Shown piece after piece: positions 18,588 through 19,302 of a stretch of 64,000 bases of DNA. The notes beneath the pieces are model-generated. The model was not told the origin of the DNA and did no database searches. It saw nothing but the letters and a program-made list of their open reading frames with translations. The translations under genes were made by a program, and so were the position numbers. How positions within the stretch are numbered: position 1 is the first letter of the stretch; each line of letters starts with the position of its first letter. This stretch comes from a bacterium (GTDB lineage: Bacteria; Electryoneota; Electryoneia; Electryoneales; Electryoneaceae). Where the stretch lies: positions 5,216,001 to 5,280,000 of the forward strand of contig OY769902.1 in NCBI GenBank assembly GCA_963669175.1, written 5' to 3'.

Positions 18588-18717
18588 ACGAGGCTCGAAC
18601 CGGGTGAAACGGGGCGGCAGCTGGAACAACAACGCCAGGAACTGCCGAGCGGCGAATCGCAACAACAACAACCCGTCCAACCGTAACAACAACATCGGCT
18701 TTCGCCTTGTGAGTTCA
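18588..18717 (+). ncRNA. DGR template repeat (TR) with IMH*
   Basis: Intergenic AAC-codon-rich copy of both VRs (reads [39 protein letters not shown]). The 3' end TTTCGCCTTGTGAGTTCA differs from the VR ends TTCCGCCTYGTGAGGTCA. Confidence 0.92.
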
Positions 18718-18939
18718 CGGCAATCGCCGGAAGAAACATGTTTAAGGACATGTTTCCAGTGCAATAAGTCCTGACCAACCTGTTATCCCAGTCCGTTACC
18801 ATACGGACGAAGAACAAAAGCGAGGTGCGGATAGTAGCCCAGGCGAATTTCGCACTTGGTTTGCTTTGTTAGCTAATCAGTAAAATCCACAGACAGAGTA
18901 ATAGTTGACTTCCGCTGAATTCTACACATCCTGCCATTC

Positions 18940-19270
18940 GGACATATAACACTTTTGAGGGCAAACAAACACCGCTGAAGACCAAGGCTGATTGGCTGGG
19001 GATATCATGACCGCCATTGATCCCGATGCCACCGCGGGCAGCCTGAACCAAACCAGGTAACCATCCTGCATCCGCCGATGCAGCTGACCAAGGCCTTCGC
19101 CAGCCGACATTCCAGCCGTCAACAATCACGGTTCGACATTGATGGGATGGTCGGTAACCTGGAGGTGACGAATGTACCCGACGCGTTTAAACCCTGGATC
19201 GCCCTGGGCCGGCATCTGGGAGTTGGGAAAGGAACTACTATGGGACAGGGTAGTTTTTATTCACAATATC
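18940..19270 (+). pseudogene. cas6: Decayed Cas6 (RAMP endoribonuclease) C-terminal fragment
   Basis: RHSSRQQ...GMVGNL...WIALGRHLGVGKGTTMGQGSF contains the G-rich GxGKxxxxGxG loop. A QTPLKTK remnant lies upstream in another frame. Boundaries are approximate. Confidence 0.6.
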
Positions 19271-19302
19271 AAAATTACGACATAGATATTAGGAGGCTAA
19301 GA

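What the first reader, a model, noticed from the sequence alone, without database searches (positions are those of the whole stretch)
18717..19300. The DGR has no RT or avd; a decayed cas6 fragment sits in their place
Seen: after the TR there is a structured ~150-nt spacer-like segment (GAAACATGT-TTAAGG-ACATGTTTC hairpin, GTCCGT/ACGGAC, GAGGTGCG/CGCACTTG), then a broken Cas6 C-terminus. No ORF in the window looks like an RT or Avd. VR1 nevertheless has zero non-A drift from the TR, which suggests recent activity. Inference: either a non-autonomous DGR that borrows RT-Avd in trans, or a recent RT deletion. The cas6 remnant hints at a former CRISPR-associated context.
Basis: partly seen in the sequence, partly recalled or inferred. 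Interest (0 to 1): 0.75.

Follow-up and report, generated by a model that had tools for sequence, protein, structure and literature searches.

The report
DGR remnant that lost its reverse transcriptase
This is the leftover of a targeted-mutation system (a diversity-generating retroelement) that still has its template, its helper RNA and two diversified sensor genes but no enzyme anywhere in the chromosome, so it is most likely recently switched off; the neighbouring Cas6 piece is unrelated debris.

Summary
TR 18584-18725 templates two VRs (15908-16050, 18254-18396). In the repeat body, 22 of 36 and 20 of 36 TR adenines differ, against 0 of 75 and 2 of 75 other positions. The three hairpins are the three helices of a conserved RNA that follows the TR (18731-18868). 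It scores below threshold against Rfam RT-14. The Cas6 piece (19039-19257) is only the last ~73 residues of a Cas6.

No RT, bAvd or DGR-type HRDC exists in the single-contig 5.45 Mb genome. Independent contigs of the sample bridge TR to 21080 without an RT. Borrowing an RT from elsewhere in the chromosome is therefore excluded.

The closest relatives (G044, G047, contig L143) share the order last VR, post-VR element, TR, RNA. Unrelated genes follow. The enzyme module HRDC-bAvd-RT lies upstream of the last target (G038; a truncated HRDC in G044). So the Cas6 fragment does not occupy the RT's place, and no CRISPR link was found.

Best reading: a recently inactivated DGR in a tRNA-Lys defence island. 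Incomplete DGRs are already described. The residual open idea is an RT supplied by an unassembled mobile element.

The parts
13015..16050 (+). Target gene 1: STAND/NACHT-type NTPase with a C-terminal FGE-sulfatase (C-type-lectin-fold) domain, 1011 aa, intact
   Evidence: Pfam FGE-sulfatase E 2.6e-52, NPHP3_N, NACHT, nSTAND3
15908..16050 (+). VR of target 1
   Evidence: In the body 18591-18701, 22 of 36 TR-A positions differ and 0 of 75 non-A positions differ, Fisher p 4e-14; alignment
16138..16215 (+). Post-VR conserved element, copy 1
   Evidence: 78% identical to 18448-18522
16270..18396 (+). Target gene 2: KAP-family P-loop NTPase (QatA/PifA-like) with a C-terminal FGE-sulfatase domain, 708 aa, intact
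   Evidence: Pfam KAP_NTPase E 3e-37, FGE-sulfatase E 2.8e-52; PADLOC QatA and PifA; full-length relatives in many phyla
18254..18396 (+). VR of target 2
   Evidence: 20 of 36 TR-A positions differ and 2 of 75 non-A positions differ, p 2e-10
18406..18531 (+). Post-VR conserved element, copy 2 (G+C-rich, with a GCCCGCC-GAAG-GCGGGC hairpin)
   Evidence: Matches downstream of VRs in G003, G006 and G009 and in G044
18584..18725 (+). Template repeat (TR), AAC-rich, non-coding
   Evidence: 87-88% identical to the TRs of G044:C189 and G047:C154
18731..18868 (+). Conserved three-helix RNA directly 3' of the TR (spacer-type, RT-14-like)
   Evidence: Model R2 scores 138 bits, but this copy was in the seed. 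An independent copy, G044:C331, scores 115 bits and G009:C4 scores 32 bits. 17 of 39 pairs covary. Rfam RF02921 scores 38.4 bits against a gathering score of 48.1, E 8.7e-4.
19039..19257 (+). Cas6 C-terminal fragment (open frame 19024-19323); not part of the DGR
   Evidence: patch of 57% G+C flanked by 35-40% G+C
21051..21103 (+). Repeat of the 3' end of tRNA-Lys(ctt): distal boundary of the island that holds the DGR remnant

Best explanation
The locus is what remains of an HRDC/bAvd-type diversity-generating retroelement after loss of its enzyme module. Six parts survive, all on the + strand:
- two intact defence-type NTPase genes whose C-terminal lectin-fold (FGE) domains carry the VRs;
- a conserved element after each VR;
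- the TR;
- a ~138-nt three-helix RNA directly 3' of the TR, related to Rfam RT-14. It is the counterpart of the TR-adjacent spacer RNA that primes cDNA synthesis in the Bordetella phage DGR.

How the intact element worked is inferred from the known DGR mechanism. A TR-spacer transcript was bound by RT with Avd and HRDC. It was copied into cDNA with random bases opposite adenines. The cDNA then replaced the VRs.

HRDC, bAvd and RT are now absent from the whole chromosome, so retrohoming cannot occur and the two VRs are frozen variants. The loss looks recent, because TR and VRs still agree at 75 of 75 and 73 of 75 non-adenine positions.

In this DGR subfamily the TR-RNA pair is the 3' end of the element, and the enzyme genes lie upstream of the last target. 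The Cas6 C-terminal fragment 170 nt further on is therefore unrelated debris of the tRNA-Lys defence island. It is not a replacement for the RT.
For: Shown by calls:

1. A-specific TR/VR pattern.

2. No enzyme module in the 5,447,365-base single contig (95.9% complete).
- PF00078 gave 0 matches.
- tblastn with the same-genus DGR RT and Avd gave a best E of 3.1.
- phmmer with 8 RTs against 126,073 six-frame ORFs gave a best E of 0.007, on a repeat translation.
- DGR HRDC, Avd and RT queries gave a best E of 0.18.
- PF22296 bAvd gave 0 matches.

3. Not an assembly collapse. Logan contigs of two runs of one sample cover 16087-18647 and 18618-21080 with 0 differences at even depth 28-31.

4. The RNA after the TR is conserved.
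- There are 5 copies in 3 of 79 genomes of the phylum.
- 17 of 39 pairs covary.
- RT-14 matches at E 8.7e-4 here and 3.4e-4 in G047.

5. Same layout in the closest relatives. The order VR, post-VR element, TR, RNA is seen in G044:C189 and in L143. In G047:C154 only the TR and the RNA are on the contig, whose start cuts off what lies upstream. No RT follows the RNA in any of the three.

6. Position of the enzyme module.
- G044:C189 keeps only residues ~17-66 of an HRDC gene directly after its first target (E 4e-20).
- G038:C113 has VR, post-VR element, HRDC, bAvd, RT. Its VRs fit our TR at 78-80 of 89 non-A positions.

7. Precedent. Incomplete DGRs and two-target STAND/KAP-CLec DGRs are described in passages of PMC10907252.

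Inferred: the mechanism of the intact element, the recency of the loss, and the former position of the module in this genome.
Against: - No member of this TR-RNA subfamily was found with an RT on the same contig. None of the strong copies is next to an RT: G000, G047:C154 (L143 is probably the same element), and G044 x3.
- In G038 the RT is present, but neither the TR nor the RNA was found. The upstream position of the module in the G000 ancestor is therefore inferred from G038 and from one HRDC fragment.
- No remnant of HRDC, Avd or RT is left in G000 to mark a deletion.
- Two RT-less loci (G000 and G044) both show near-perfect TR/VR agreement. This could equally mean ongoing diversification by an RT that is not in the assemblies.
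- The genome is one chromosome-sized contig, so plasmids and phages of the organism are not covered.
- Contig-level read data cannot show rare VR variants.
- Purifying selection on the lectin scaffold could keep non-A positions of the VRs unchanged, so 'recent' is soft.
Confidence: 0.68

Rival explanations
1. Non-autonomous DGR. The TR-RNA-VR module is still diversified, by an HRDC-bAvd-RT cassette carried on a plasmid, phage or other replicon that is not part of this chromosome assembly.
For: - TR/VR agreement is near-perfect in two RT-less genomes. In G000, 0 and 2 of 75 non-A positions differ. In G044, 1 and 2 non-A differences were found.
- No strong copy of the RNA is adjacent to an RT.
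- No DGR RT was found in G044 or G047.
- avd-TR-RT acts in trans experimentally, and remote targets are diversified in trans in nature (passages of PMC5758913 and PMC10907252).
Against: - No RT of any kind is in the chromosome.
- No VR variants appear in contigs of the sample (weak, because contigs drop rare variants).
- G044 carries a truncated HRDC gene and two further decayed TR-RNA copies, which is the signature of decay rather than of a maintained satellite.
- Neither the TR nor the RNA core was found in IMG/VR.
- G044 and G047 are draft assemblies (94% and 92% complete).
Confidence: 0.13
2. The RT lay downstream of the TR-spacer (avd-TR-RT order), and one deletion removed it together with the 5' two-thirds of an adjacent cas6 gene.
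For: - G001 (same genus) has avd-TR-RT with a 175-nt spacer.
- G009:C4 (same family) has TR, RNA, RT.
- In G000 the conserved RNA ends at 18868, about where an RT start would be expected.
- The composition changes at about 18870 and about 18960.
Against: - Those two DGRs are more distant: TR 78-80% identical, and the RNA scores 32 bits or is not detected.
- The close subfamily (TR 87-88% identical, RNA 115-152 bits) has unrelated genes after the RNA, and signs of the enzyme module upstream.
- No avd lies between VR and TR in G000; only 187 nt separate them, mostly the post-VR element.
- No RT-coding remnant is present in 18726-19040.
- Cas6 was found next to 0 of 80 related loci.
Confidence: 0.1
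3. Assembly artefact. An RT gene next to the TR was collapsed out of the assembly.
For: VR/TR repeats break short-read assemblies. Logan contigs end at 16087-16116 and at 18618-18647.
Against: - Contigs from an independent assembler overlap across every junction with 0 differences and even depth.
- Close relatives show the same layout.
- The runs are probably the source sample, so this check is independent of the assembler but not of the data.
Confidence: 0.02

Closest known systems
DGRs that diversify STAND/KAP NTPase-CLec 'antigen sensor' genes in multicellular bacteria (clade 5D; Thiohalocapsa PB-PSB1), including incomplete DGR loci (PMC10907252; passages read)
   Same: Two target genes, each with a central NTPase (NACHT/STAND or KAP) and a single C-terminal CLec/FGE domain that carries the VR. 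That paper reports loci lacking an intact RT, and structural variants that differ in RT integrity.
   Different: Here no RT exists anywhere in the chromosome, so trans action from another chromosomal DGR, which is that paper's explanation for several loci, is not available. I did not place this element in an RT tree, because it has no RT.
HRDC-containing DGRs (Architecture C; 14 of 372 DGRs, about half of them also with avd; represented by the Treponema DGR) (PMC5758913; passages read)
   Same: Relatives that carry the enzyme use HRDC. L045, L047 and L066 have target-HRDC-RT-TR. G038:C113 has HRDC-bAvd-RT. G044 keeps an HRDC fragment.
   Different: G000 has none of HRDC, Avd or RT. The TR is separated from the presumed position of the enzyme module by a target gene.
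Rfam RT-14 RNA (RF02921) and the RT-n motifs of Weinberg et al. 2017. RT-10 is the TR-to-RT spacer of Bordetella phage BPP-1 (PMC5737381; passages read)
   Same: A structured RNA of ~140 nt tied to reverse-transcriptase loci. The match here is full length (1-144 of 144), with E 8.7e-4 in the window and 3.4e-4 in G047. It sits directly 3' of a TR, as RT-10 does.
   Different: The score is below Rfam's gathering threshold (38.4 and 40.6 bits against 48.1), and no RT gene is nearby. The paper's supplementary files, which describe RT-14 itself, could not be seen.
Cas6 endoribonucleases of the PF10040 type
   Same: The C-terminal ~65-73 residues, including the glycine-rich loop (GVGKGTTMGQG), are 45-49% identical to the best full-length proteins.
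   Different: About 150-250 N-terminal residues are missing. There is no start in context, no CRISPR array and no cas neighbours. It is the only such match in the genome.

Membership tests
Diversity-generating retroelement (DGR) | TR/VR pair whose differences fall at TR adenines | tested here: met
   22 of 36 A against 0 of 75 non-A positions, and 20 of 36 A against 2 of 75 non-A positions
Diversity-generating retroelement (DGR) | DGR-clade reverse transcriptase in the cassette or the genome | tested here: not met
   no RT in the 5.45 Mb contig
Diversity-generating retroelement (DGR) | Accessory gene (Avd/bAvd or HRDC) | tested here: not met
   PF22296 gave 0 matches. DGR Avd and HRDC queries gave E >= 0.18. 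The three PF05635 genes lie in unrelated contexts.
Diversity-generating retroelement (DGR) | VR at the 3' end of a target gene with a C-type-lectin-fold (FGE-sulfatase) domain | tested here: met
   Pfam PF03781 reaches the last residues of both ORFs
Diversity-generating retroelement (DGR) | IMH / IMH*-type differences at the 3' end of VR and TR, and a target-side structure downstream of the VR | tested here: inconclusive
   Both VRs share T18702C and T18714G against the TR. A conserved post-VR element follows each VR. Function was not tested.
Diversity-generating retroelement (DGR) | Ongoing diversification (VR heterogeneity in a population) | not testable with these tools
   Only contigs of the runs were available. 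No VR variants were listed, but contigs drop rare variants.
Rfam RT-14 RNA (RF02921) | Score at or above the curated gathering threshold | tested here: not met
   38.4 bits against 48.1, E 8.7e-4 in 501 nt. No hit at the gathering threshold in the whole window.
Rfam RT-14 RNA (RF02921) | Location next to a reverse transcriptase gene | tested here: not met
   There is no RT in the genome. A distant homologue in G009:C4 does lie between a TR and an RT.
Cas6 (PF10040) | Domain match above the Pfam cut-off | tested here: met
   31.9 bits against 25, covering only profile positions 36-88 of 89; PADLOC Cas6 E 2.5e-14
Cas6 (PF10040) | Full-length protein with its N-terminal part | tested here: not met
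   Only 19039-19257 aligns. All other tblastn pieces seen had E >= 0.05 (output cut, so only part of the 72 queries was seen).
Cas6 (PF10040) | CRISPR array or other cas genes nearby | tested here: not met
   There is no array-like repeat family in the window. The only Cas1 lies at 624.6 kb.

The most novel reading that the evidence does not exclude
TR plus RT-14-like RNA plus VR-bearing targets form a non-autonomous 'satellite' DGR module. It persists in chromosomes without any RT and is serviced intermittently by an HRDC-bAvd-RT cassette arriving on a mobile element. This would explain three observations. Modules from three genomes of two families have no RT beside them. Two of those modules still match their VRs almost perfectly. 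In G044 the RNA is better preserved than the TR next to it.
Probability: 0.13. Interest if true: 0.7.

Novelty: new member of a known kind. Interest (0 to 1): 0.35.

Why it matters
DGR surveys start from the RT gene, so RT-less modules like this one go uncounted. This locus shows that the TR, its partner RNA and intact diversified defence-type NTPase genes can outlast the enzyme. A conserved RNA (an RT-14 relative) also marks such orphans: the model built here finds them without an RT.

For this organism, the practical meaning is that two sensor genes are fixed at their last diversified sequence. If the minority reading were right and an RT is supplied in trans by a mobile element, the TR and the RT would be separable units in nature. 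That would change how DGR activity is predicted from genomes.

Tried and rejected
- **Close copies in public collections.** Exact-pattern scans for the TR 3' end (genome contigs), the first hairpin (metagenome contigs) and a TR stretch (viral contigs) all found nothing. The degenerate RNA-core pattern found nothing in viral contigs. In metagenome contigs it gave 5 hits, of which 1 (L143) is real by the model and 4 are chance.
- **First RNA model (R1).** It was built from four RT-TR type relatives (L045-L047, L066). Its best hit in 15000-21000 was the spacer, but at only 8.7 bits and E 0.066, and it gave nothing with default filters. Pairwise local alignments to those four were no better than shuffles (z <= 1). 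I dropped that homology claim. R2 gives L045 only 14 bits, E 0.033.
- **Cas6 origin.** Searches found no longer relatives by word index, none in 15 other genomes of the order, none in viral contigs and none in 80 target-gene loci. The origin of the fragment stays unknown, and the best known relatives are only 45-49% identical.
- **Orthologues of the two targets.** G001 and G009 match only in the FGE domains, so synteny could not be used to date the loss.
- **G038's TR.** It was not found on its contig nor on C176.
- **L046 (Desantisbacteria MAG).** It has a perfect TR/VR pair (16 of 16 differences at A) and no RT in the 11.4 kb held. Its genome has one RT that is not of DGR type. The MAG is incomplete, so I drew no conclusion.
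- **Run X3.** It covers only 8 of 30 bins and none of the TR-to-Cas6 stretch, so it was uninformative.
- **Terminator and promoter scan of 18300-20400.** It found no terminator and no more promoters than shuffles gave.
- **Weak phmmer hits at 2,902,541 and 1,135,978.** These are translations of repeats, not RT.

Full report
**The repeats.** The window is G000:C1:5216001-5280000 of a single-contig genome of 5,447,365 bases, 95.9% complete. A 142-nt AAC-rich template repeat lies at 18584-18725. It has two diverged copies at the 3' ends of two intact genes. One gene is 13015-16050 (1011 aa: NACHT/STAND-type NTPase plus FGE-sulfatase domain). The other is 16270-18396 (708 aa: KAP-family NTPase plus FGE-sulfatase domain; QatA/PifA-like in PADLOC).

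I compared TR and VRs over the body 18591-18701.
- The upstream VR differs from the TR at 22 of 36 TR adenines and at 0 of 75 other positions (Fisher p 4e-14).
- The downstream VR differs at 20 of 36 adenines and 2 of 75 other positions (p 2e-10).
- 28 of the 30 differences between the two VRs fall at TR adenines.
- Both VRs share two differences from the TR near the 3' end, at 18702 and 18714. This is as expected for an IMH-type end.

This is a genuine DGR TR with two VRs. The genome holds no further copy of either.

**No enzyme.** Every search of the chromosome for the enzyme module came back empty.
- PF00078 found nothing in the chromosome. The same search rings in 3 of 14 control genomes and in 4 of 5 relatives.
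- tblastn with the DGR RT and Avd of the same-genus genome G001 gave nothing better than E 3.1.
- phmmer with eight diverse RTs against all 126,073 six-frame ORFs of at least 25 aa gave a best E of 0.007. That hit is a translated repeat.
- HRDC, bAvd and RT of related DGRs gave nothing better than E 0.18.
- PF22296 (bAvd) gave 0 matches.

Three PF05635 four-helix-bundle genes exist, but none is a DGR Avd. One sits between pyruvate:ferredoxin oxidoreductase genes. The DGR Avd queries do not hit them.

**Not an assembly hole.** Contigs of two public runs of one sample, probably the source, were made by a different assembler. They cover 12900-16116, 16087-18647 and 18618-21080 with no differences and even depth 28-31. 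Contigs cannot show rare VR variants, so present activity is untested.

**The 'spacer'.** A DNA search of 79 genomes of the phylum found TRs 87-88% identical to ours in G047:C154 and G044:C189. Each is followed by a stretch 69-74% identical to 18726-18859.

I built a covariance model, R2, from four copies. It finds 5 copies in 3 of the 79 genomes: one in G000, one in G047 and three in G044.
- An independent copy in G044:C331 scores 115 bits.
- A copy in a metagenome contig (L143) scores 152 bits.
- A distant one scores 32 bits (E 2.4e-7) in G009:C4, lying exactly between that DGR's TR and its RT.

RNAalifold on six copies gives 39 pairs, and 17 of them are kept through changes on both sides.

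Rfam's RT-14 (RF02921) matches full length below its threshold. The score is 38.4 bits here and 40.6 in G047, against a gathering score of 48.1 (E 8.7e-4 and 3.4e-4 in 501-nt searches). It gives no hit on G009:C4.

The RT-n motifs were defined by lying near RT genes, and RT-10 is the TR-to-RT spacer of phage BPP-1 (passages of PMC5737381). So 18731-18868 is a DGR partner RNA that has lost its RT. By analogy with the BPP-1 spacer it probably positions and primes the RT. That role is inferred, not tested.

**Where the enzyme genes were.** DGRs of relatives come in several orders.
- G001 (same genus) has avd-TR-RT.
- G009:C4 has TR-RNA-RT.
- Three loci that share the KAP-FGE target type have target-HRDC-RT-TR, each with all TR/VR differences at adenines: 18 of 18, 17 of 17 and 15 of 15.

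The closest subfamily by TR and RNA is G044, G047 and L143.
- G044:C189 and L143 show the same layout as G000: last VR, post-VR element, TR, RNA. G047:C154 shows only the TR and the RNA, because the contig starts 153 nt upstream of the TR.
- Unrelated genes follow the RNA: an SLT transglycosylase in G044 and a secreted protein 1.2 kb on in G047.
- G044:C189 carries only residues ~17-66 of an HRDC gene straight after the post-VR element of its first target (E 4e-20). Lipoprotein genes follow it.
- G038:C113 has VRs that fit our TR at 78-80 of 89 non-adenine positions. It has VR, post-VR element, HRDC, bAvd, RT, all confirmed by Pfam. Its last VR lies 40 nt from the contig end, so its TR is not seen.

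The simplest reading is that in this subfamily the enzyme module lies upstream of the last target and the TR-RNA pair closes the element. I hold this with moderate confidence. No single contig shows the RT and this TR-RNA pair together, and G000 keeps no remnant to mark the deletion.

**The Cas6 fragment.** The frame 19024-19323 matches PF10040 (31.9 bits, cut-off 25) and PADLOC Cas6 models (E 2.5e-14) over the C-terminal glycine-rich end only.
- Against 1.84 billion representative proteins, 72 proteins match at E <= 1e-3. The best are 45-49% identical, and the matches lie at the C-termini of proteins of 226-330 aa.
- The top 6 of 6 are PF10040 proteins.
- tblastn places the homology at 19039-19257, and no other piece was seen.
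- The fragment is a 57% G+C patch between stretches of 35-40% G+C.
- It is the only PF10040 match in the genome, and the only Cas1 lies at 624.6 kb.
- No Cas6 was found in 15 other genomes of the order, in 80 loci of related targets or in viral contigs.

It is real and truncated. Nothing ties it to the DGR or to a local CRISPR system.

**Setting.** tRNA-Lys(ctt) lies 9.5 kb before the window. Its 3' 44-53 nt recur at 21051-21103 and 40935-40987, which marks two islands in tandem. The first island holds a type III restriction-modification system, GmrSD, Hachiman (HamA plus helicase), a UvrD/GajB-like helicase, an integrase and the DGR remnant at its far end. The second island starts with integrases and an IS110 transposase. 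Gene loss and stray fragments are expected in such a place. G001 and G009 have no orthologues of the NTPase parts of the two targets, which fits acquisition with the island.

**Verdict.** The observations hold. This is a DGR that lost its RT, probably recently, and nothing in the chromosome can serve it in trans. The Cas6 fragment is neither in the RT's place nor a sign of a CRISPR past.

Incomplete DGRs and this target class are already described (PMC10907252, passages). HRDC-type cassettes are described too (PMC5758913, passages). So this is a new member of a known kind.

One pattern is mildly unexpected. Modules from three genomes have no RT beside them, two of them match their VRs almost perfectly, and G044 holds RNA copies that outlast their TR. 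That keeps open, at about 13%, a satellite model with an RT supplied from a mobile element.

Noticed in passing
window 21051-21103 and 40935-40987; tRNA at G000:C1:5206440-5206515: The 3' 44-53 nt of tRNA-Lys(ctt) recur twice downstream of the gene. This marks two integrative islands in tandem, of about 30.5 kb and 19.9 kb. ARAGORN finds no tRNA in the window itself.
   Followed up: partly
L113 and window 1-12700: The first island is a defence island. It holds type III R-M (Res plus methylase), GmrSD, HamA plus a DEAD helicase (Hachiman-like), a UvrD/GajB-like helicase, an integrase at 8121-9173 and a Mu F-like protein at 11839-12681.
   Followed up: partly
window 16138-16215 and 18406-18531: A G+C-rich element follows each VR. 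It is conserved (72-79%) downstream of VR-like gene ends in G003, G006, G009 and G044. It may be the target-side recognition structure of this DGR lineage.
   Followed up: partly
L130, L131, L140 (G044:C189, C340, C331): One genome holds three copies of the TR-adjacent RNA in different states: one after an intact TR, one after a half-decayed TR and one with no TR. The RNA scores 115-152 bits throughout, so it is better preserved than the TR.
   Followed up: partly
L046 9185-9309 (Desantisbacteria MAG contig): A TR whose 16 differences from the neighbouring VR all fall at adenines, with no RT in the 11.4 kb held. An ATPase/DUF234 gene follows it. This may be another RT-less module in a distant phylum.
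   Followed up: partly
G009: A same-family genome has at least 46 FGE-domain matches. Two of its VR-like ends (C32, C27) fit the G000 TR at 85 of 89 non-adenine positions, yet no cognate TR was found in that assembly.
   Followed up: partly
window 19303-19998 (-) and 20019-20288 (+): A 231-aa protein with a signal-peptide-like start matches no family in Pfam, NCBIfam or PADLOC. It is divergent from an 89-aa HTH protein that resembles restriction-modification control (C) proteins.
   Followed up: no
window 48055-51750 (-) and 51799-55497 (-): Two tandem paralogous genes of about 1231 aa each, 71-84% identical in stretches (repeat families D2, D4-D6, D8, D10, D11).
   Followed up: no
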